A DNA stretch of 64,000 nt from Colwellia polaris (lineage in GTDB: Archaea; Nanohalarchaeota; Nanosalinia; Nanosalinales; Nanosalinaceae): assembly GCA_047617785.1 (NCBI GenBank), contig JBLGBK010000002.1, forward strand, positions 58,605 through 122,604, read 5' to 3'. A program made the translations under genes and the position numbers. This document shows positions 56,291-63,273 of this stretch, one piece after another (position 1 is the first letter of the stretch; every line of letters begins with the position of its first letter). A model generated the notes under the pieces. It saw only the letters and a program-made list of their open reading frames with translations. It did no database searches and was not told where the DNA came from.

Positions 56291-57124
56291 GTGGTTACAA
56301 TGGTTGAATGCGACTTCTGTGGAGAAAAATTTGATAACAAGGCACGTATGCACGTGCACTGGGGAGAAAAGCATGAAGACGAGCTTAACTCTCACCAGAA
56401 AGAAAAAGTAAAGAAAGCCGAAAGAATCAAGGAGGAAGAAAAATCCGAAGTAATGGCTCGCAGGAAACGTCTGGCCGGTTATGGTTTAGGCGGCACCCTT
56501 ACAGTACTTCTACTCGGATTTCTACTCCTACAGGTAATGCAGAATACAGGTGGCGGCCTGCCGCAGCAAGAATCCTTCGAACTTCAGAGCCAGCCGGTTC
56601 TAGGTGCTTCTGAGAACACTTCTAATGATACTATACAGATCGTTGAGTTTGGAGACTATCGTTGCCATCATTGTCAGAGCTTTGACATGGAGCATAAGCC
56701 CCAGCTAGTAGAAGATTATATAGAGAATGAAGAGGTAGATGTAGAGTTTTACTGGATCAATACTCCTATACTTGGCCCTCAGTCGGAAACAGCAGCTATA
56801 GCCTCTGAGTGCGTAGTAGATGAAGCCGGCAGAAATAGCCAAGAGTTCTGGAATTTCCATTCTGCAATGTTTGAGAATCCAAATATCAACTACAATGCTG
56901 ATGCTTTGACACAGGTAGCAAGAGATTCAACATCCGGTCTTGACTACGATTCAATTAACTCCTGTATATCAAATAGAGAGAGCCAGGATGCAGTTGAGAA
57001 GGATATGAGCATAGCGCAGGGTAACAACGTCACGTCAACCCCTACAATCTTCGTGAACGATGAGCGTATGTCCGGATACGATGCGAGCACAATCAGCTCA
57101 TCTATAGAAAGAAAACTTAACTAA
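56291..57124 (+). CDS. C2H2 zinc finger-TM-DsbA family protein
   Basis: CDFC..HVHWGEKH, basic stretch then TM, FGDYRCHHC, STPTIF. Confidence 0.85.
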   Translation: MVTMVECDFCGEKFDNKARMHVHWGEKHEDELNSHQKEKVKKAERIKEEEKSEVMARRKRLAGYGLGGTLTVLLLGFLLLQVMQNTGGGLPQQESFELQSQPVLGASENTSNDTIQIVEFGDYRCHHCQSFDMEHKPQLVEDYIENEEVDVEFYWINTPILGPQSETAAIASECVVDEAGRNSQEFWNFHSAMFENPNINYNADALTQVARDSTSGLDYDSINSCISNRESQDAVEKDMSIAQGNNVTSTPTIFVNDERMSGYDASTISSSIERKLN

Positions 57125-59513
57125 ATCTTCCGAGGCCGCTCTGAGTGGCCTCACCCTTTAATCTATTCTTTGAATAACCGAACTCCTTCAATACACGATA
57201 TGCTACAGGGATGATCTGGTTGTCAACGTAGTACTCCGGATCATAGTTCTCAGCGTATTTCAGAAGCTCTGCACGACTTGAAATATTTCCTGAACCGCGT
57301 GTTACGACGTATGCGATCGTTGTTTCCGGTTCGATTTCATCACCTCTTTCCTCTGCTTTCTTCACTGCTTCAACATGAGGAGCTGTTGAACCGTATTCTT
57401 CCGGAGGTTTAGTGAGTGTGGTGTATATTCGAAGCTCGTCTGTATCAACCTCTCCCTCTCTAAGCCTTTCCACAGTATCTATAACTGTCTGAAGAGCTTC
57501 CTCAACTTTGTCCTCAAGGACCTTCCGTAATACCTCCTTCTGTGTCTGCTTTGCCAAGGGACACCAGTCTCTCCTGACCTGTTCGAAACCTGTTATCTTC
57601 AATCCTCCATCTTCATCCATCAAGGCGTACTTCTTCTTAGCACCTTCACCAGACTCTGTCGAAGTGAAGAACCCACGTTTGAAGAATCCTTCGAACTCCA
57701 GTTCCATGAACTCAGGCAGATTATCATTCACCCGATCCAGGAAGCCGTCAATATCCCTCATTATATTATCTTTCTGGAGGAAGACTGAGTCAGTATCGCC
57801 GTATACAACCTCAAAGCCTTCTTGTTCTGCATCTTCAATAGTATCTTCAATATATTTCCGACCCAGGTATGTTGTAGCCTCCGCCGATTCTCTCGAGTAC
57901 CAGCGAGCGCCATTGTAACCCAAGTACCCATAGAACGAGTTGGCGAGTATCTTCTTCGCCTGCTGCTCGCTGTAAAGAGCCTGGTGTTCAGCAGTTCCTT
58001 CCTCCTTCTCTTTCATTTCGCTCTTGATCTCATAGCGGTCTTCAACCAGGTTTCTAACCAGTTCTGGGAAGAATCCTTCCTCATCTTGACAGAAGGTATA
58101 GTCGAACTCATCCATCTCGAAGCTGTCACTGCATTCCTCTACGTTCAATGTGTCTGGAGAGATATTGTGCGCCACAATAACTGTAGGATACAGCGATCGG
58201 AAATCCAGAGTTACAAGATCTTCATACAGACCTGCATCCGGAGTGTAGACGAATCCTCCGCTGTAAGCTCCCTGTCGCTGTCTTTTTCTTCTTTTATCTT
58301 GGCTTGGCCGGTTCTCTACAAGTATATCGCGCCGGTATGCTTCTCTTATTAGGTAGTTTTCAGTTAACTGGCCGTATGTCAGTCGGCAGGCATCGAAAGG
58401 CGTTAGACCGGTTATTCGGGCTAACTCTAGTATCTGCGGCACAATCTGTTCTCCGAGCTGGTATGCTATCTCTGAATCCTTGAGCGCGTATTCAGCAAAC
58501 TCCTCTAGATTCTCTTTCTGCTCCCAGTTCTGCTTCATTTCCTCCCAACTCATATCGTCTTTGTTCATGTCAAGCAGTTCTTCTGCAACAGAGTCAAGAT
58601 CCAGCGTTTCAGAATCCATTCCCTGCCCGAGGACATGTGATACAAAGGCGTAGAGGTCAAGATGAGGTCTTCCTTTCAGCCGGGCGCCGGAGAAGCGTCC
58701 TCTTCTGTTGAACTTCATTCGTTCGCCGTTTCTGCTGAGAGAGAGCGTCAAATTAAGATCTTCTGCTCTTTCACGTAGAACCTGGAAGTCATACTCATCG
58801 GTATTGTATCCCAGAACTAGATCAAAGTCTTCTTCGTTTACGTAGTCTATGAATGCTTGAATCATCTGTTGTTCAGATTCAAAGCTTGTTACAAATTCTC
58901 TATCGATATCTTCTGTGCTGTAAACGTTCTGGCCGTTCTCCGACCACGTTGAGATCATTATTACTTCGTCTTCGTACACTTCCAGATCAAAGGCCATCGA
59001 ATTAAGACTCAGTATCTCTTTTCCTCCTTCAGACCAAGATTCTAGTTGGTAAGCGTCCTGGAAGTCGCCTCCAACTTCTTCTGCTTCTATTTTGTACCAT
59101 TCTCCTGTTCTCAAGTTTTTGTCTATCATGTAGCGTCGATAGAACGGTATGTCGAACTCTCTGCATTCTCTGACTGCTTCCATATCCCAAAGCTTGTTTT
59201 TCAGTTTCGGTACGTTTGGGGGAATTGTTGTCTGGATTCTGAGGACGCTGCGTTCTTCCTTAGTAATCTTCTTTTCAACAACTTCTACTTCAGTTACTTC
59301 AAGTTGTTCGCTGTCTTCTTGGAAGTCACGATCTTCTACGTTTTCTTTGAGTTCTCCTATATCAGCATCTTCCTGCGGGACTGCGTAGAAGTAAGGTTTG
59401 AAGTCCCTATCGATTATCTTTACAGCTTCGTCTGCGTCGTTCTTACCGTATACTCGGACTGTTACATCCTCGTCTTCTACGGTGTAGTCGATATCTAGAA
59501 GCTGTACCTTCAC
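57117..59513 (-). CDS. polB: family B DNA polymerase (no intein seen)
   Basis: FDLE, GYN, YALKD exonuclease motifs; DFRSLYPT, KILANSFYGY, YGDTDS. Confidence 0.96.
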   Translation of the reverse strand: MKVQLLDIDYTVEDEDVTVRVYGKNDADEAVKIIDRDFKPYFYAVPQEDADIGELKENVEDRDFQEDSEQLEVTEVEVVEKKITKEERSVLRIQTTIPPNVPKLKNKLWDMEAVRECREFDIPFYRRYMIDKNLRTGEWYKIEAEEVGGDFQDAYQLESWSEGGKEILSLNSMAFDLEVYEDEVIMISTWSENGQNVYSTEDIDREFVTSFESEQQMIQAFIDYVNEEDFDLVLGYNTDEYDFQVLRERAEDLNLTLSLSRNGERMKFNRRGRFSGARLKGRPHLDLYAFVSHVLGQGMDSETLDLDSVAEELLDMNKDDMSWEEMKQNWEQKENLEEFAEYALKDSEIAYQLGEQIVPQILELARITGLTPFDACRLTYGQLTENYLIREAYRRDILVENRPSQDKRRKRQRQGAYSGGFVYTPDAGLYEDLVTLDFRSLYPTVIVAHNISPDTLNVEECSDSFEMDEFDYTFCQDEEGFFPELVRNLVEDRYEIKSEMKEKEEGTAEHQALYSEQQAKKILANSFYGYLGYNGARWYSRESAEATTYLGRKYIEDTIEDAEQEGFEVVYGDTDSVFLQKDNIMRDIDGFLDRVNDNLPEFMELEFEGFFKRGFFTSTESGEGAKKKYALMDEDGGLKITGFEQVRRDWCPLAKQTQKEVLRKVLEDKVEEALQTVIDTVERLREGEVDTDELRIYTTLTKPPEEYGSTAPHVEAVKKAEERGDEIEPETTIAYVVTRGSGNISSRAELLKYAENYDPEYYVDNQIIPVAYRVLKEFGYSKNRLKGEATQSGLGRFS

Positions 59514-59854: not shown

Positions 59855-60052
59855 ATGGCAGAACTACCACTAGCACCAGTCAAGCGTATCATCAAATCTG
59901 CAGGCGCATCACGAGTTTCAGAAGATGCAGTAGAAGAACTAAGAGATGAACTAGAAGAACACGCAAAGGATCGAGCAAGAGAAGCAAAGGAATTCGCAGA
60001 GCACGCAGGACGCAAGACTGTTCAGGACGACGACGTAAAAGCATCCAGATAA
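59855..60052 (+). CDS. archaeal histone (HMf-like, single fold)
   Basis: [30 protein letters not shown]. Confidence 0.96.
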
Positions 60053-60146: not shown

Positions 60147-60908
60147 ATGCGTCTAGAAAACAGTTTCATAATCGCGCCCGGTATAGGAGAGAAGACAGAA
60201 ACCAAACTCTGGAAGAACAACATCACTCATTGGGACGAAGTAGAGGATACCGGAAGACTAACCGCAAACAAGAAAGACAAGATAACCAGCTTCCTAGGCA
60301 AAGCACGAAAAAACCTTGAAGTCGAAAACACTGCATTCTTCAAGCAGAAACTGCCTCAGAACAGCTACTGGCGCATGTACGAAAATTTCAAAGAAAGCGT
60401 GTGTTTCTTCGATATCGAAACTACAGGCTTAGATAAGAAAAGGAACAGCGTAACCACCGTCAGCATCTACCGGAACGGAGAATCTAAGACACTGATTAAA
60501 GGCCAGGATTTGACACGCGAACGACTGGAAGAGGAGTTCTTTGACTCAAGCATTATCGTTTCCTTCAATGGGAAGAGCTTCGATCAACCCTTCCTAGAGC
60601 ATAACTACAACTTGAACATCGATAATCCGCACATCGACCTGATGTATCCGGCGCGGAAACTAGGTTACACCGGAGGACTGAAAAACATTGAGAAGGAGCT
60701 CGGAATAGCCAGAGATCTTGAGGAAGATATGGACGGCAAAGATGCTATCCGGCTGTGGAAGAAGTACAAGAAGAACAATGATGAAGAAGCACTGAATAAA
60801 CTGGTTGAATACAATCAATACGATACGGAGAACCTTCAGCGTTTGCTAGATATCGTCCATAAGAAACTAGATCGCCGTCATTTCAAGAAACACATCCCCG
60901 ATGAATGA
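60147..60908 (+). CDS. RNase H-like 3'-5' exonuclease (YprB-like) with N-terminal HhH
   Basis: PGIGEKT HhH; FFDIETTG, FNGKSFDQP, HIDL, YNQYD. Confidence 0.88.
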   Translation: MRLENSFIIAPGIGEKTETKLWKNNITHWDEVEDTGRLTANKKDKITSFLGKARKNLEVENTAFFKQKLPQNSYWRMYENFKESVCFFDIETTGLDKKRNSVTTVSIYRNGESKTLIKGQDLTRERLEEEFFDSSIIVSFNGKSFDQPFLEHNYNLNIDNPHIDLMYPARKLGYTGGLKNIEKELGIARDLEEDMDGKDAIRLWKKYKKNNDEEALNKLVEYNQYDTENLQRLLDIVHKKLDRRHFKKHIPDE

Positions 60909-60911
60909 CTA

Positions 60912-60922
60912 AATATTTAAAG
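60912..60922 (+). promoter_or_regulatory. candidate TATA box for the 60.95-61.55 kb transcript
   Basis: AATATTTAAAG about 25-30 nt before the structured region. Confidence 0.45.
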
Positions 60923-60954
60923 GGGCAACGCCAATAGTTCGATAGACAAAACAC

Positions 60955-61080
60955 ATGGCCTTGGTTAACAATACTAACTGGTTCACTGGAAACATGTCCA
61001 TGTTTATGGATTCAGTGAGACCCACCTTTAACCTGCACAAGGCCAAGGCTAATTCTATTATCTATCTGCTGGCAGCTTAA
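60955..61080 (+). CDS. 41-aa ORF ending in ssrA-tag-like ANSIIYLLAA (translation uncertain)
   Basis: MALVNNTNWFTGNMSMFMDSVRPTFNLHKAKANSIIYLLAA*; non-acidic; overlaps RNA hairpin 1. Confidence 0.3.
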   Translation: MALVNNTNWFTGNMSMFMDSVRPTFNLHKAKANSIIYLLAA

Positions 61081-61340
61081 AGCGGGATGACGCCTTGGCT
61101 TGATTTACAAGCCAGGTATCACGGCCGACCGCGAATAACTAAAAATTCTAGGAAAGGAGTGAAAAACGACCTCTAAAGGGTTGCATTCTCCTCTGAATGG
61201 TTTTTGACCTCTCTGTGGAACAATGAGGGAAAAAGACCAAGGAGAAACGAACTCTTCAACGTCTTTTTCTCTCCAGGCGCACCCTGCTTCAAGTGGCAGA
61301 GGTAGGGTGCAGCCGTCGGAAAAATCTCTTCACGACACAC
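60957..61340 (+). ncRNA. putative large multi-hairpin RNA (family unknown)
   Basis: At least six consecutive hairpins with G-U pairs favouring the + strand; long-range pairing to 61509-61543. Confidence 0.6.
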
Positions 61341-61402
61341 CACTACCAAGATAAAACACAGGATCAAACCACGAACGCGAAACCAGAGGTGAACAACACA
61401 CA

Positions 61403-61519
61403 ATGGACGCAAACACACGCCACTTTGAAACAGAGCTTGCAGCTCAGGAAGTTGAGGAACATCGAGAAGAGACACAAGTACATCCTGAAGCTGAAGTAAT
61501 GACGGCAACCGCTCTTTAG
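61403..61519 (+). CDS. 38-aa acidic small protein (below track cut-off)
   Basis: MDANTRHFETELAAQEVEEHREETQVHPEAEVMTATAL*; GAGGTGA SD at 61386-61392; genome-like acidic composition. Confidence 0.6.
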   Translation: MDANTRHFETELAAQEVEEHREETQVHPEAEVMTATAL

Positions 61520-61575
61520 AATAAAGAAAGAAGGTAGCTGCCAAATAATCGAATGCTCTCCGGAGAGCTAGCTAT

Positions 61576-62049
61576 TCAGTTTTCATAGGCAGCTGACTCG
61601 AACGCAGCCCAACCGTTAGCCATAGAGTCAAGTATTGAGGTAAAAGTACGCGCCGGCTTTATGACCTTGCGACGACCTTGAGACCCTTCTTTTGAATCAC
61701 GATACTCCAGATACTCATATTTGATAACACCAAGTCTTCTCAATTTAGGCAGTATATTGTTCTTCAGATTTGACTTACCTTTCTCATGACCCCATTCATC
61801 GAACGCATTCAATTTCTCAGAATCAATCTCGCCGTCAGACTTTAACTCGCGTAAGAATATTTTAGCATACTTGTTCCGTTTCGGCGACTGCTCGTGAGGG
61901 AAGAAAAGATCTACAAGTTTTTCCCAGTTCCAGGCACGTTCAGAACGCTTGAACTTCTGCTTATCTTCAGGTATGGCTATTGAATGCTTTGTCACAATCG
62001 TTGAGGTTTTCCGTGCTTCTTCATCTACAAACGGATGGTCGTCTGCCAT
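61576..62049 (-). CDS. K/R-rich winged-helix nucleic-acid-binding protein
   Basis: KSNLKNNILPKLRRLGVIKY..GRRKVIKP wing; unusually K/R-rich for this proteome. Confidence 0.7.
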   Translation of the reverse strand: MADDHPFVDEEARKTSTIVTKHSIAIPEDKQKFKRSERAWNWEKLVDLFFPHEQSPKRNKYAKIFLRELKSDGEIDSEKLNAFDEWGHEKGKSNLKNNILPKLRRLGVIKYEYLEYRDSKEGSQGRRKVIKPARTFTSILDSMANGWAAFESAAYEN

Positions 62050-62196: not shown

Positions 62197-63273
62197 ATGA
62201 AAACAAACATGCAATATATAGCAGTTATCATGTCGGCATTTCTAATGCTGACAGGTACTGCACTGGCGCAGAACACCACCAATTCCACAAATAGCAATTT
62301 ACCAAGTAACAACACCAGCGAAAACTCTTCTCAGCTGGGCGACGGAGTAATATCATACAATTTCAATATCCAAGGACTTCCTGCAGAAGCCTCTAACAGC
62401 GATGATCAAGAAGTAGATGCAGAAAGAGAGTTTGAAGCAGATCCTGATGAAAACGAAAACTTCACCATCAGCGAAGATGAAGCAGAAAGATCTGCATTAG
62501 AAGCTCTAGGAAGCGAAGAATGGAATTTAGACTCTAGCGAAAAATCAGATGGCTTATACGTTTTCGAGTACCAAAGAGGAGAAAGCGAAGCTGAAGTAGA
62601 AATAGACGGATCCACAGGAGAAGTAACTAGTCTAGAAGGAGAAGTAGAATATGAACCCGAAGAATCACGTGATGACCCAGTTATCCGGCTTTCAGGTTTC
62701 ATTGAATTCAATACCGGCGGATATGAAGTCGATATTGAAAGCGAAGAAGAAAACAGCAACGCAGACTTCACAGTAAGAATTGAAGAACCCGAAGAATCTG
62801 CAACCCAAGCAGTCACACGAACCTCCGTAGAAGAGGACTTAGAAGCGGAATCAGGACGGCACACCGTCAATCTTGAAGTAGTTAGAGACGGAGAAACAGT
62901 TCTCCAGAGAACGAAAGAAGTAACAGTCCCAGAAAGCCAGGAGGATTCAGAAAGTAGTGAAGAAGATAATCAGAGATTCGAACAAGATCCAGAGAACATG
63001 ACAAGAGAAGAACTAATCGAAGAGGTCAAAGATCTCAGAGAACAGGTTCTAGATCTTTCAGAAAGTATGAACAGACCGGATGAGGATAGTAATCAAAGAC
63101 AAGGTCCTCCTGAAGACGTACCGGCACAGCCAGGAGAAGATGAAGAAGAGAATGAGTCAGAAAGTAACGAAAGCGAAGAAAGGAGTCAGGGACCGCCTAC
63201 AGACACACCAGGCCAAGGAAGCGATAATCGACCAGGATTCGTTAACAATCTTCTCAACGGCATCTTCGGATAA
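62197..63273 (+). CDS. secreted protein with PepSY-like and PrcB-C-like domains
   Basis: Signal peptide (..TALA|Q); ISEDEAERSALE..EVEIDGSTGEV; NTGGYEV..ATQAVT; NxS/T sequons. Confidence 0.65.
   Translation: MKTNMQYIAVIMSAFLMLTGTALAQNTTNSTNSNLPSNNTSENSSQLGDGVISYNFNIQGLPAEASNSDDQEVDAEREFEADPDENENFTISEDEAERSALEALGSEEWNLDSSEKSDGLYVFEYQRGESEAEVEIDGSTGEVTSLEGEVEYEPEESRDDPVIRLSGFIEFNTGGYEVDIESEEENSNADFTVRIEEPEESATQAVTRTSVEEDLEAESGRHTVNLEVVRDGETVLQRTKEVTVPESQEDSESSEEDNQRFEQDPENMTREELIEEVKDLREQVLDLSESMNRPDEDSNQRQGPPEDVPAQPGEDEEENESESNESEERSQGPPTDTPGQGSDNRPGFVNNLLNGIFG

What the first reader, a model, noticed from the sequence alone, without database searches (positions are those of the whole stretch)
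60945..61545. Unannotated ~600-nt highly structured RNA locus enclosing small ORFs
Seen: this is the largest gap without a credible long gene in a very compact genome, preceded by a TATA-like box and tiled by hairpins. H1: GGCCTTG(60957)/CAAGGCC(61038) with nested GTTAA/TTAAC and TCACTGGA/TTCAGTGA. H2: GCGG/CCGC with TGGCTTG-ATTTA-CAAGCCA (61082-61132). H3: AGGAG..CGACC/GGTTG..CTCCT (61155-61192). H4: TGGTTTTT..CCTC/GAGG..AAAGACCA (61198-61239). H5: GGAGA/TCTCC. H6: GGC-GCACCCTGCTTC/GAGGTAGGGTGC-A-GCC (61276-61314). An unstructured A/C-rich stretch and an SD-led ORF follow. Long-range pairs TGGCAGCT(61070)/AGCTGCCA(61536) and AGCGG/CCGCT(61509) could close the domain around that ORF, and AGCGG has two alternative partners (possible switch). 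I find no RNase P, SRP or rRNA signature. Inference: a new large ncRNA or regulated leader in a reduced DPANN genome.
Basis: partly seen in the sequence, partly recalled or inferred. Interest (0 to 1): 0.85.

Follow-up and report, generated by a model that had tools for sequence, protein, structure and literature searches.

The report
Conserved K-turn RNA with small ORFs
This gap in a tiny archaeal genome holds a previously undescribed, family-wide conserved folded RNA that carries a protein-binding kink-turn, seems able to flip between two shapes, is itself read by ribosomes at its start, and is followed by a second conserved mini-gene.

Summary
The locus is real and not ordinary. Window 60909-61575 matches no Rfam family. 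The genome's RNase P and SRP RNAs lie elsewhere. The stretch is single-copy and matched in 45 of 50 genomes of the family, including 23 of 23 good-quality ones. Outside the family, ORF2 and the kink-turn hairpin were found in only 1 of 20 genomes of the phylum.

Five helices are supported by covariation: P1, P2, a kink-turn hairpin, P4 and P5.

Two small ORFs are genuine:
- ORF1 (60955-61080, about 40 codons, probably leaderless) keeps its frame through at least 10 length changes, all multiples of 3. It shows no codon periodicity.
- ORF2 (61403-61519, 38 aa) evolves like a protein.

A 10-13 bp alternative helix between the 3' strand of P1 and the 5' strand of the kink-turn hairpin is conserved and close in energy to the main fold. 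This suggests a two-state switch that links kink-turn (L7Ae) binding to exposure of ORF1's start codon.

Function, transcript ends and L7Ae binding are inferred; no RNA data were available.

The parts
60916..60921 (+). TATA-like box (TTTAAA), 39 nt before the ORF1 ATG. It implies a transcript start a few nt upstream of the AUG, so a leaderless or very short leader.
   Evidence: A TTWWAW box was found upstream of ORF1 in 33 of 35 relatives. In 30 of 35 it starts 31-40 nt before the first in-frame ATG. The transcription start is inferred from the usual archaeal TATA-to-start spacing (general knowledge); it was not measured.
60955..61080 (+). ORF1: 41 codons, no Shine-Dalgarno sequence, overlapping P1, P2 and the switch strand. 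Its stop (TAA 61078-61080) lies 1 nt before the kink-turn stem.
   Evidence: The frame is open in 27 of 27 relatives; the other two frames carry stops in 26 and 27 of 27. All four inter-anchor segments vary in length (3-4 lengths each) and are always congruent mod 3, in 24 of 24 sequences (3 of 27 were dropped for lack of anchors). There is no codon periodicity (0.26/0.34/0.33). No family match and no entry in the protein collection.
60957..61044 (+). 5' domain. P1 (GGCCUUG 60957-60963 with CAAGGCC 61038-61044) includes the G of the start codon and encloses P2.
   Evidence: P1 in this register: 97.4% of cells paired, 3 of 8 pairs with double changes. The register RNAalifold chose: 94.5% paired, 0 double changes.
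60984..61017 (+). P2 hairpin (CACUGGA..CAU / AUG..UUCAGUG) inside ORF1.
   Evidence: 10 pairs, 92.7% paired, 4 with double changes.
61040..61050 (+). Switch strand 'a2' (AGGCCAAGGCU). It overlaps the 3' strand of P1 and is also complementary to 61092-61101 in the kink-turn hairpin.
   Evidence: 10-13 bp duplex, -16.8 to -22.9 kcal/mol, in 32 of 33 relatives; L029 has one mismatch (-13.5). Own-genome pairs beat pairs from other genomes, p 0.0005, the best of 55 segment pairs.
61082..61132 (+). Kink-turn hairpin (P3). C stem GCGG 61082-85 / CCGC 61129-32; bulge GAU 61086-88; tandem G.A pairs G61089 A61090 with G61127 A61128; then the NC stem and the helix UUGGCUUG/CAAGCCAG.
   Evidence: The GA/GA nucleotides, the two inner G-C pairs of the C stem and bulge positions 2-3 (AU) are invariant in 26 of 26; the first bulge base is at least 90% G. 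Model R1 finds exactly one hit per genome in 45 of 49 family genomes.
61155..61192 (+).
   Evidence: It lies in an alignment insertion absent from the other 25 sequences of A1. It is present in the same-genus loci L004/L005.
61198..61239 (+). P4 hairpin with the conserved loop motif CUCUGUGGAAC (61211-61221).
   Evidence: The two halves around the motif pair better within a genome than across genomes: -14.46 against -10.56 kcal/mol, 0 of 5000 permutations as good, n=29 of 37. Lineage-specific stems are visible.
61241..61274 (+).
   Evidence: It lies in an alignment insertion; conservation outside the genus was not seen.
61275..61314 (+). P5 hairpin with a conserved apical part (consensus UGCUUGCAAGGUG; this genus has a longer loop).
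   Evidence: 96.4% paired, 10 of 15 pairs with double changes, up to 6 pair types per position. Model R2 gives 1 hit in each of 37 unique loci and in 40 of 49 family genomes.
61315..61385 (+). CGGAA(C) motif followed by a short A/T-rich box, then an A/C-rich spacer poor in G.
   Evidence: The spacer is 50-93 nt in 37 loci and begins CCGGAAC + TTTT/TATA-like in most. Whether this is a weak internal promoter, a terminator or neither is open.
61386..61391 (+). Shine-Dalgarno-like GAGGUG, 11 nt before ORF2.
   Evidence: GGUG is conserved before ORF2 in the 37 loci listed.
61403..61519 (+). ORF2: 38-aa acidic protein with a conserved N-terminal motif and a conserved short hydrophobic C-terminal end (alignment A2).
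   Evidence: Open in 29 of 29 relatives, 37-39 aa, with coding periodicity 0.36/0.22/0.58. There are 8 invariant columns. A search of 1.84 billion representatives gave 39 relatives, all the same small family.
61555..61568 (.). Palindromic hairpin GCUCUCCGGAGAGC between the convergent ends of ORF2 and the 157-aa gene.
   Evidence: Read. Conservation was not tested.

Best explanation
The locus encodes a lineage-specific RNA that both codes and folds. Transcription starts a few nt before the ORF1 AUG, from a conserved TATA-like box.

The first ~180 nt form a two-state switch.
- State 1: the 5' end, including the G of the start codon, pairs with CCAAGGCC (P1). A box-C/D-like kink-turn hairpin forms 1 nt after the ORF1 stop.
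- State 2: the same GGCCAAGGC strand pairs instead with the 5' strand of the kink-turn hairpin. This destroys the kink-turn and frees the 5'-terminal AUG.

Binding of the kink-turn protein L7Ae (one L7Ae-family gene is present in this genome) would lock state 1 and shut off translation of the leaderless ORF1. Ribosomes reading ORF1 melt P1 and, at the stop codon, the kink-turn stem.

Two further conserved hairpins follow: P4, with an invariant-like loop, and P5. They are probably binding sites for a protein or another RNA. Next comes a separate, SD-led gene for a 38-aa acidic protein. It is either co-transcribed by read-through or has its own weak promoter.

Shown: conservation, helices, kink-turn consensus, frame conservation, alternative helix.
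Inferred: transcript ends, L7Ae binding, the direction of the switch, and any role of the peptides.
For: Distribution and synteny:
- Single copy, matched in 45 of 50 family genomes including 23 of 23 good-quality ones.
- The kink-turn model gives 1 hit per genome.
- The exonuclease gene lies upstream in 34 of 37 loci; the convergent 157-aa gene lies downstream in 37 of 37.

Structure:
- Covariation supports P1/P2, the kink-turn hairpin, P4 and P5.
- z -4.9 here; -4.12, -2.40 and -3.28 in three relatives.

Kink-turn:
- C stem, 3-nt bulge and tandem GA/GA are as the kink-turn consensus requires; the GA/GA and the two inner C-stem pairs are invariant in 26 of 26.
- -1b:-1n is G:C. According to passages of PMC6298567 this prevents ion-induced folding, as in box C/D kink-turns, so folding would depend on protein.
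- An L7Ae-family gene is present.

ORF1:
- Frame kept through at least 10 length changes, all multiples of 3.
- TATA-like box at a fixed distance.

Alternative helix:
- 10-13 bp in 32 of 33.
- Compensatory changes in L009, L031/L059, L032 and L065.
- Own-genome advantage p 0.0005, the best of 55 tests.
- In the proximal stem only the 3' strand varies, while the distal pairs change on both sides.
- The two states differ by a mean of 2.5 kcal/mol. The alternative state is lower in 9 of 33. The MFE contains it in 13 of 33 and contains P1 plus the kink-turn hairpin in 20 of 33.
Against: - No transcript, 5'/3' end, ribosome or peptide data could be obtained.
- ORF1 shows no codon periodicity, so its peptide may not matter.
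- The switch segments are almost invariant, so covariation for the alternative helix rests on about four lineages. One sequence (L029) breaks it.
- The permutation p ignores relatedness, and after correction for 55 tests it is about 0.03.
- Cross-complementarity follows partly from P1 and the kink-turn stem sharing one 8-mer.
- Energies were computed for 37 C and standard salt, not for a salt-in halophile.
- L7Ae binding is untested.
- No pairing between any upstream element and the ORF2 ribosome-binding site was supported (mid against SD p 0.86, P5 against SD 0.81). A link between the RNA and ORF2 is therefore only positional.
Confidence: 0.45

Rival explanations
1. Leader with an upstream ORF. 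ORF1 plus the structured RNA is the 5' leader of one bicistronic mRNA, and its job is to control ORF2 by attenuation-like or reinitiation-like coupling.
For: - The order is TATA box, short translated ORF, mutually exclusive helices, then an SD-led ORF2, in every locus.
- There is no strong promoter box before ORF2; only a weak A/T-rich box follows P5.
- ORF2 and the RNA co-occur: the genomes with and without each match almost entirely.
Against: - No own-genome pairing was found between any upstream segment and the ORF2 SD region.
- The switch lies 270-320 nt upstream of ORF2 in the window.
- P5 is followed by a run of four or more T in only about 10 of 37 loci (by inspection).
- Hairpin-dependent termination is not established in archaea (general knowledge).
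Confidence: 0.2
2. A stable non-coding RNP RNA of about 250-360 nt that acts in trans, for example as a scaffold for L7Ae and other proteins. Ribosome passage over ORF1 would be incidental, and ORF2 an unrelated neighbour.
For: - The structured part ends at P5 (median 266 nt).
- The P4 loop and the P5 apex are conserved in sequence, as binding sites are.
- A kink-turn is typical of RNPs.
- ORF1 lacks codon periodicity.
[quoted passage not shown] Its sequence is only in supplements that I could not see, so identity with this RNA is unverified.
Against: At least 10 frame-preserving length changes in ORF1, with stops in the other frames in 26-27 of 27, are hard to explain without translation.
Confidence: 0.2
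3. Two ordinary small-protein genes. The hairpins would be only mRNA-stability or termination elements with no regulatory meaning.
For: - Both ORFs are conserved.
- Small proteins are commonly missed by annotation (ORF1 absent from the protein collection).
Against: - Nucleotide conservation of 68-79% across genera is centred on the RNA helices.
- A consensus kink-turn, conserved loops and a conserved alternative helix go well beyond stability hairpins.
- ORF1's substitution pattern is not protein-like.
Confidence: 0.1
4. A divergent member of a known RNA family (RNase P, SRP, box C/D or H/ACA guide RNA), or a protein gene on the opposite strand (123-aa ORF, 61173-61544).
For: - The kink-turn resembles box C/D (GGGAUGA ... 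CCGA).
- The antisense frame is open over 123 codons in the window.
Against: - Rfam gave 0 hits at gathering score and only 2 chance-level hits at E up to 10. Nothing was found at the locus in 5 relatives.
- RNase P and SRP RNAs are found elsewhere in the genome.
- There are no C'/D' boxes, and the would-be guide region is a covarying hairpin.
- The antisense frame is open for 100 codons or more in only 7 of 37 relatives.
Confidence: 0.03

Closest known systems
L7Ae / kink-turn translational control of archaeal l7ae mRNA leaders (Daume et al. 2017, PMC5539422: search listing and start of abstract only; Huang, Ashraf and Lilley 2019, PMC6298567: abstract and passages)
   Same: - A kink-turn stem-loop in an mRNA.
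- By the published sequence rules (-1b:-1n not C:G) it should fold only when L7Ae binds.
- Its folding decides access to a start site.
   Different: - Here the kink-turn is not at the ribosome-binding site. It lies 1 nt after the stop of a leaderless small ORF.
- It would act at a distance, by releasing a competitor strand that then sequesters the 5'-terminal AUG.
- The gene is not l7ae.
- Binding is untested.
Bacterial leader-peptide attenuators (trp/his type, recalled) and leaderless short-ORF attenuators of mycobacteria (bioRxiv 10.1101/834739: search listing and start of abstract only)
   Same: - A short translated ORF at the very 5' end.
- Four segments that can pair 1:2 + 3:4 or 2:3.
- Segment 2 lies inside the ORF, and segment 3 lies just after its stop.
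   Different: - Helix 3:4 is a kink-turn hairpin, not a terminator with a U tract.
- No run of regulatory codons was identified.
- The host is an archaeon.
- The downstream gene is far from the switch, and no coupling to it was detected.
Box C/D sRNA kink-turn
   Same: The terminal stem, the GAUGA and the GA of the C- and D-like boxes, and -1b:-1n = G:C.
   Different: - The D-like box is CCGA in most sequences.
- There are no C'/D' boxes.
- The internal sequence is a covarying hairpin, not a guide.
- No Rfam C/D model matches.
Dual-function (coding) small RNAs such as SgrS/SgrT or RNAIII/hld (recalled)
   Same: One transcript that carries both a conserved structure and a small translated ORF.
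   Different: - Those are bacterial, act by base-pairing with Hfq-type help, and have no kink-turn.
- Here the ORF overlaps the structured core itself.
OLE RNA, a large structured RNA of extremophiles with a functional kink-turn bound by OapC (PMC9723947: search listing and start of abstract only)
   Same: A lineage-restricted, highly structured RNA of unknown biochemical function in extremophiles, with a protein-recognised kink-turn.
   Different: - OLE is bacterial, about 600 nt and non-coding.
- No sequence or structure match (Rfam search negative).

Membership tests
Kink-turn (k-turn) RNA motif | Watson-Crick C helix directly 5' of a 3-nt bulge | tested here: met
   GCGG/CCGC: 4 pairs, 100% paired, 2 of them with compensatory changes (GU, AU/UA variants). 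The bulge is GAU, or AAU in one sequence, in 26 of 26.
Kink-turn (k-turn) RNA motif | Tandem G.A / A.G pairs opening the NC helix (GA after the bulge; GA before the C-helix strand) | tested here: met
   G22 A23 and G60 A61 (numbering of the first sequence) are invariant in 26 of 26. The NC helix continues with G-C and a covarying C-G/U-A pair (18 and 8 sequences).
Kink-turn (k-turn) RNA motif | Kinked three-dimensional fold and binding by an L7Ae-family protein | not testable with these tools
   Only the presence of one L7Ae-family gene in the genome was shown (92.1 bits).
Box C/D guide sRNA | C box RUGAUGA and D box CUGA at the termini | tested here: inconclusive
   The C-like box is GGGAUGA (6 of 7). 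The D-like box is CCGA in most sequences and CUGA in a few (L012, L016, L029).
Box C/D guide sRNA | Internal C'/D' boxes and single-stranded guide sequences | tested here: not met
   The interior is an 8-pair hairpin, 90.4% paired, with 5 of 8 pairs changed on both sides. No Rfam C/D family reaches E 10 here.
RNase P RNA / SRP RNA | Match to the Rfam covariance model | tested here: not met
   No match in the window. The genome's RNase P-like RNA is at G000:C2:8965-9353 (63.5 bits) and its SRP RNA at C5:33053-33325 (132.7 bits).
Leader-peptide attenuator | Short translated ORF at the 5' end of the transcript | tested here: met
   Frame conservation is shown, and promoter spacing. This is computational evidence only.
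Leader-peptide attenuator | Mutually exclusive helices 1:2 + 3:4 against 2:3 | tested here: met
   P1 plus the kink-turn hairpin against a2:kink-turn 5' strand.
Leader-peptide attenuator | Helix 3:4 is an intrinsic terminator, or sequesters the downstream ribosome-binding site | tested here: not met
   The kink-turn hairpin is followed by an A-rich linker, not a U tract. No supported pairing with the ORF2 SD.
Riboswitch | Known ligand-binding aptamer | tested here: not met
   No Rfam match. An unknown aptamer in P4/P5 cannot be excluded.

The most novel reading that the evidence does not exclude
This is the first attenuator-like device described in Archaea. It is a leaderless, translated RNA switch in which ribosome traffic over a ~40-codon ORF and binding of L7Ae to a kink-turn compete for one shared strand. 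It would report the cell's free L7Ae or ribosome-assembly state and set the level of two lineage-specific mini-proteins that are core genes of a family of ultra-small symbiotic archaea.
Probability: 0.25. Interest if true: 0.85.

Novelty: new variant of a known kind. Interest (0 to 1): 0.7.

Why it matters
- Structured RNAs of ultra-small archaea are almost unexplored. I found no paper describing this one. The one possible sighting is an uncharacterised 266-nt transcript in PMC7002113.
- The locus is present in every good-quality genome of the family, in a genome that has shed most non-essential DNA. It therefore probably does something important.
- It offers a compact natural test case for three open questions:
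  - whether archaea use leader-peptide or ribosome-sensing RNA switches;
  - how L7Ae/kink-turn control works outside the l7ae gene itself;
  - how coding and structural constraints coexist in one sequence (ORF1 keeps its frame but evolves like an RNA).
- It also adds two unannotated or mis-annotated mini-proteins. Gene callers over-extend ORF2 through the RNA.

Tried and rejected
Ideas tested and rejected:
1. The P4 loop (CCUGCC...) as a competitor of the P5 3' strand for the P5 5' strand. Own-genome and other-genome duplex energies were equal (-8.81 against -8.81, p 0.49, 37 loci). Rejected.
2. Sequestration of the ORF2 SD by P4, P5 or the spacer. No own-genome advantage (p 0.86, 0.81, 0.53). 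The linker against SD gave p 0.0135, which does not survive correction for 55 tests.
3. Not supported.
4. The P1 register chosen by RNAalifold (second AAGGC repeat) is worse than the first register.
5. The antisense 123-aa ORF is open for 100 codons or more in only 7 of 37 relatives.

Searches that gave nothing usable:
6. Function of ORF1, ORF2 and the 157-aa neighbour.
   - Pfam and NCBIfam gave no match.
   - The PDB sequence search gave only chance-level hits (E 0.37 or higher).
   - The AF2 model of ORF1 is an uninformative low-confidence helix (pLDDT 56.6).
   - The 157-aa model (pLDDT 62.1) gave only weak Foldseek hits (E 0.01 or higher) to winged-helix regulators. 'wHTH' is therefore plausible but not shown.
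   - The ESM Atlas lists archaeal hypothetical-protein clusters and, at 0.91, the AF_0843 family.
7. Complex prediction of the 157-aa protein with ORF2 gave no answer (score 0.00). This is no evidence either way.
8. The look-up of sequencing runs listed no RNA holder, only DNA metagenome runs. Read laying was therefore not used. Nothing about expression or habitat is concluded from it.
I replaced it with the strand folding on 3 relatives.
10. Supplements of PMC7002113 (Fig. S6A, Data Set S1), which hold the sequence of STRG.4577.1, are closed. Its identity with this RNA could not be checked.
Full report
WHAT IS THERE

The stretch 60909-61575 lies between an RNase_H_2/exonuclease gene (60147-60908, +; PF13482, E 2.9e-41) and a convergent 157-aa gene (61576-62049, -). 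The 601-nt region folds much better than dinucleotide shuffles on the + strand (z -4.90, 0 of 20 shuffles as good). It is somewhat less extreme on the - strand (z -3.89). With ORFs of 150 aa or more as the yardstick, it is the third-largest ORF-free gap of the window (667 nt).

NOT A KNOWN RNA

Rfam 15 gives no match at gathering score anywhere in the 64-kb window. At E up to 10 it gives only two chance-level hits in the gap. Nothing appears at the homologous place in five relatives. The genome's RNase P-like RNA (G000:C2:8965-9353, 63.5 bits, below the cut-off of 84) and its SRP RNA (C5:33053-33325, 132.7 bits) are elsewhere.

CONSERVATION

- A DNA search found the gap in 45 of 50 genomes of the family (G000 included), and in 23 of 23 that are at least 90% complete.
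- It is single-copy in its own genome.
- Two blocks are conserved at 68-79% identity between genera, and up to 84-92% over short stretches of block 2:
  - window 60955 to about 61148;
  - window 61384 to about 61523.
- The phylum holds 70 genomes in one order. Outside the family, ORF2 and the kink-turn hairpin model are found in 1 of 20 genomes only. That case is a 2.2-kb contig of G056 and may be a binning error.
- The four family genomes that lack everything are 72-85% complete.
- Synteny is fixed. The exonuclease gene lies upstream on the same strand in 34 of 37 unique loci; two of the three misses (L004, L005) are loci cut at a contig end. The 157-aa gene lies convergent downstream in 37 of 37, at 80-100% amino-acid identity.

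TWO SMALL ORFS

ORF2 (61403-61519, 38 aa):
- It is open in 29 of 29 relatives at 37-39 aa.
- It has 8 invariant columns.
- Its substitution pattern is that of a protein (pairwise differences by codon position 0.36/0.22/0.58).
- A profile search of 1.84 billion representatives returns 39 proteins at E up to 0.001, all the same small family. The longer ones are gene calls over-extended through the RNA; their N-terminal parts are not conserved.
- In 13 of 37 loci the ATG is replaced by ATC, ATA or ATT. In 12 of these 13, an in-frame GTG lies 9 nt upstream (by inspection).

ORF1 (60955-61080, 41 codons, no SD):
- It is open in 27 of 27 relatives, while the other two frames carry stops in 26 and 27 of 27.
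- Between four sequence anchors, each segment takes 3-4 different lengths, always congruent mod 3, in 24 of 24 sequences. Three of 27 were dropped because an anchor pattern failed. That is at least 10 frame-preserving length changes.
- Yet the three codon positions vary alike (0.26/0.34/0.33, and by region).
- So the frame is selected, but the sequence evolves like an RNA.
- ORF1 is in no family library and not in the protein collection.

STRUCTURE

On MAFFT alignments that were not fitted to any structure:

| Helix | Cells paired | Pairs changed on both sides | Control |
|---|---|---|---|
| P5 | 96.4% | 10 of 15 | slid controls 44-51% |
| Kink-turn hairpin | 94.5% | 8 of 14 | - |
| P1 (GGCCUUGG/CCAAGGCC) | 97.4% | 3 of 8 | alternative register: 94.5%, 0 double changes |
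| P2 | 92.7% | 4 of 10 | - |

- P4 has lineage-specific stems around a conserved loop. Its two halves pair better within a genome than across genomes (-14.46 against -10.56 kcal/mol, 0 of 5000 permutations as good, 29 of 37 loci).
- Three relatives also fold better than shuffles (z -4.12, -2.40, -3.28).
- From the ORF1 AUG to the end of P5, the RNA is 360 nt here and 248-299 nt in 30 relatives (median over all 31: 266 nt).

KINK-TURN

The hairpin that starts 1 nt after the ORF1 stop reads as follows:
- C stem GCGG/CCGC;
- 3-nt bulge GAU;
- GA opposite GA;
- then an NC stem.

The GA/GA dinucleotides, the two inner pairs of the C stem and bulge positions 2-3 are invariant in 26 of 26. This is the kink-turn consensus as I recall it from the literature; the nomenclature is confirmed by passages of PMC6298567. 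It resembles a box C/D kink-turn (GGGAUGA ... CCGA). The pair next to the bulge is G:C. According to that paper this prevents folding in metal ions alone, as in box C/D RNAs, so folding would need L7Ae. One L7Ae-family gene is present in the genome. It is not a guide RNA: there are no C'/D' boxes, and the interior is a covarying hairpin.

A CONSERVED ALTERNATIVE HELIX

I compared duplex energies of every pair of 11 segments within a genome against across genomes (33 loci, 55 tests). The best signal is between the strand AGGCCAAGGCU(UUC), which overlaps the 3' strand of P1, and the kink-turn hairpin (-19.6 against -18.7 kcal/mol, p 0.0005).

- The duplex is 10-13 bp and uses the kink-turn's own GA and NC-stem nucleotides. 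It therefore excludes both P1 and the kink-turn.
- It is present in 32 of 33 loci; L029 has one mismatch.
- It shows compensatory changes in L009, L031/L059, L032 and L065.
- In the proximal part of the kink-turn stem only the 3' strand varies, giving G.U pairs, whereas distal pairs change on both sides. This is expected if the 5' strand has a second partner.
- Predicted energies of the two states are close: mean difference 2.5 kcal/mol, with the alternative state lower in 9 of 33. The MFE contains the alternative in 13 of 33 and contains P1 plus the kink-turn in 20 of 33.

Caveats:
- The segments are nearly invariant.
- The permutation test ignores relatedness.
- Part of the cross-complementarity follows from one 8-mer being used in both helices.

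TRANSCRIPT

- A TTWWAW box is present upstream of ORF1 in 33 of 35 loci. In 30 of 35 it starts 31-40 nt before the first in-frame ATG (39 nt here). With the usual archaeal spacing this places the start a few nt before the AUG, so ORF1 would be leaderless. The G of its AUG is the first base of P1.
- After P5 comes CCGGAAC plus a short A/T-rich box, then a 50-93-nt A/C-rich spacer.
- Whether that box is a weak promoter for ORF2, a termination signal or neither cannot be decided.
- No RNA run holding the sequence was offered.
- A halite metatranscriptome paper mentions an expressed, conserved 266-nt intergenic RNA from 'a member of the Nanohaloarchaea' (PMC7002113, passages). The length equals the median AUG-to-P5 length, but the sequence is in closed supplements. 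This is a lead, not evidence.

MECHANISM PROPOSED

- State 1 is P1 plus the kink-turn. State 2 is the alternative helix, with a free 5' AUG.
- L7Ae binding would stabilise state 1 and silence ORF1.
- Ribosomes on ORF1 open P1 and, at the stop codon, the C stem of the kink-turn.
- P4 and P5 look like binding sites.
- Shown: the helices, the motif, the frame selection, and the alternative complementarity with its near-equal energy.
- Inferred: binding, direction of control, and the output.
- No link from the RNA to ORF2's ribosome-binding site was found. I therefore rank 'dual-function RNA with a self-contained switch' above 'leader that controls ORF2'.

COMPARISON AND NOVELTY

- The device works like the L7Ae/kink-turn leaders of l7ae genes and like four-segment leader-peptide attenuators. 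It fails a defining feature of each:
  - the kink-turn is not at the ribosome-binding site;
  - the 3:4 helix is not a terminator.
- It also fails the tests for box C/D RNAs.
- Literature searches found no description of it.
- I file it as a new variant of a known kind: a protein-dependent RNA switch combined with a translated leader ORF. It is a new RNA family restricted to one family of small-genome archaea.

LIMITS

- Everything rests on sequence comparison of 26-37 related loci.
- Relatedness inflates the shuffle-based numbers.
- The energy model does not fit a hypersaline cytoplasm.

Noticed in passing
G000:C2:8965-9353 (locus L001), outside the window: The genome's only RNase P RNA candidate scores 63.5 bits against RF00373, below the gathering score of 84 (E 7.7e-18). 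This is a divergent RNase P RNA that standard annotation would miss.
   Followed up: no
window 61403-61405 and the homologous sites in L010, L011, L018, L020, L022, L024, L025, L027, L045, L054, L056, L065, L066: The ORF2 start codon is ATG in 24 of 37 loci and ATC, ATA or ATT in 13. In 12 of those 13 an in-frame GTG, the last bases of the GGTG 'SD', lies exactly 9 nt upstream. That clade may therefore start at GUG without an SD, or at a near-cognate AUH codon.
   Followed up: partly
window 61576-62049 (-): This 157-aa protein has no Pfam, NCBIfam or PDB sequence match, yet shows 80-97% identity across the family's genera (the neighbouring exonuclease shows 57-67%) and is always convergent to ORF2. 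The AF2 model (pLDDT 62) has a winged-helix-like topology, with weak Foldseek hits to PadR/MarR/TFE. The ESM Atlas points to widespread archaeal hypothetical clusters and the AF_0843 family.
   Followed up: partly
proteins P0002, P0005-P0008, P0015-P0017 etc.: Public gene calls for ORF2 are often extended 25-70 codons upstream through the structured RNA. The conserved P5 loop is then read as the residues 'LLARW'. These N-terminal extensions are not conserved and are probably annotation artefacts.
   Followed up: partly
G056:C114 (locus L054, 2.2-kb contig): The only genome outside the family with the locus carries exonuclease, RNA, ORF2 and the 157-aa gene on a 2.2-kb contig. This looks like a mis-binned contig rather than a true occurrence in that family.
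   Followed up: no
window 1-64000: There is no tRNA gene (ARAGORN) and no Rfam family at gathering score in 64 kb of a 787-kb genome.
   Followed up: no
window 57117-59513 (-) and 59855-60052 (+): A 798-aa ORF carries a YGDTDS motif, which suggests a family B DNA polymerase (recalled motif). A 65-aa ORF looks like an archaeal histone by eye. Neither was tested against a library. The locus sits among information-processing genes.
   Followed up: no
window 62197-63273 (+): A 358-aa extremely acidic, Asn/Ser/Glu/Asp-rich ORF has a hydrophobic N-terminal segment. It is possibly a secreted or surface protein.
   Followed up: no
window 60988-60993, 61217-61221, 61317-61321 and homologous sites: A GGAA(A)C-like motif recurs at three conserved places: in P2, in the P4 loop or 3' strand, and directly after P5. 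The post-P5 copy reads CGGAAAAA in the window and CCGGAAC in most relatives. It could be a repeated protein-binding site. It was not tested.
   Followed up: no
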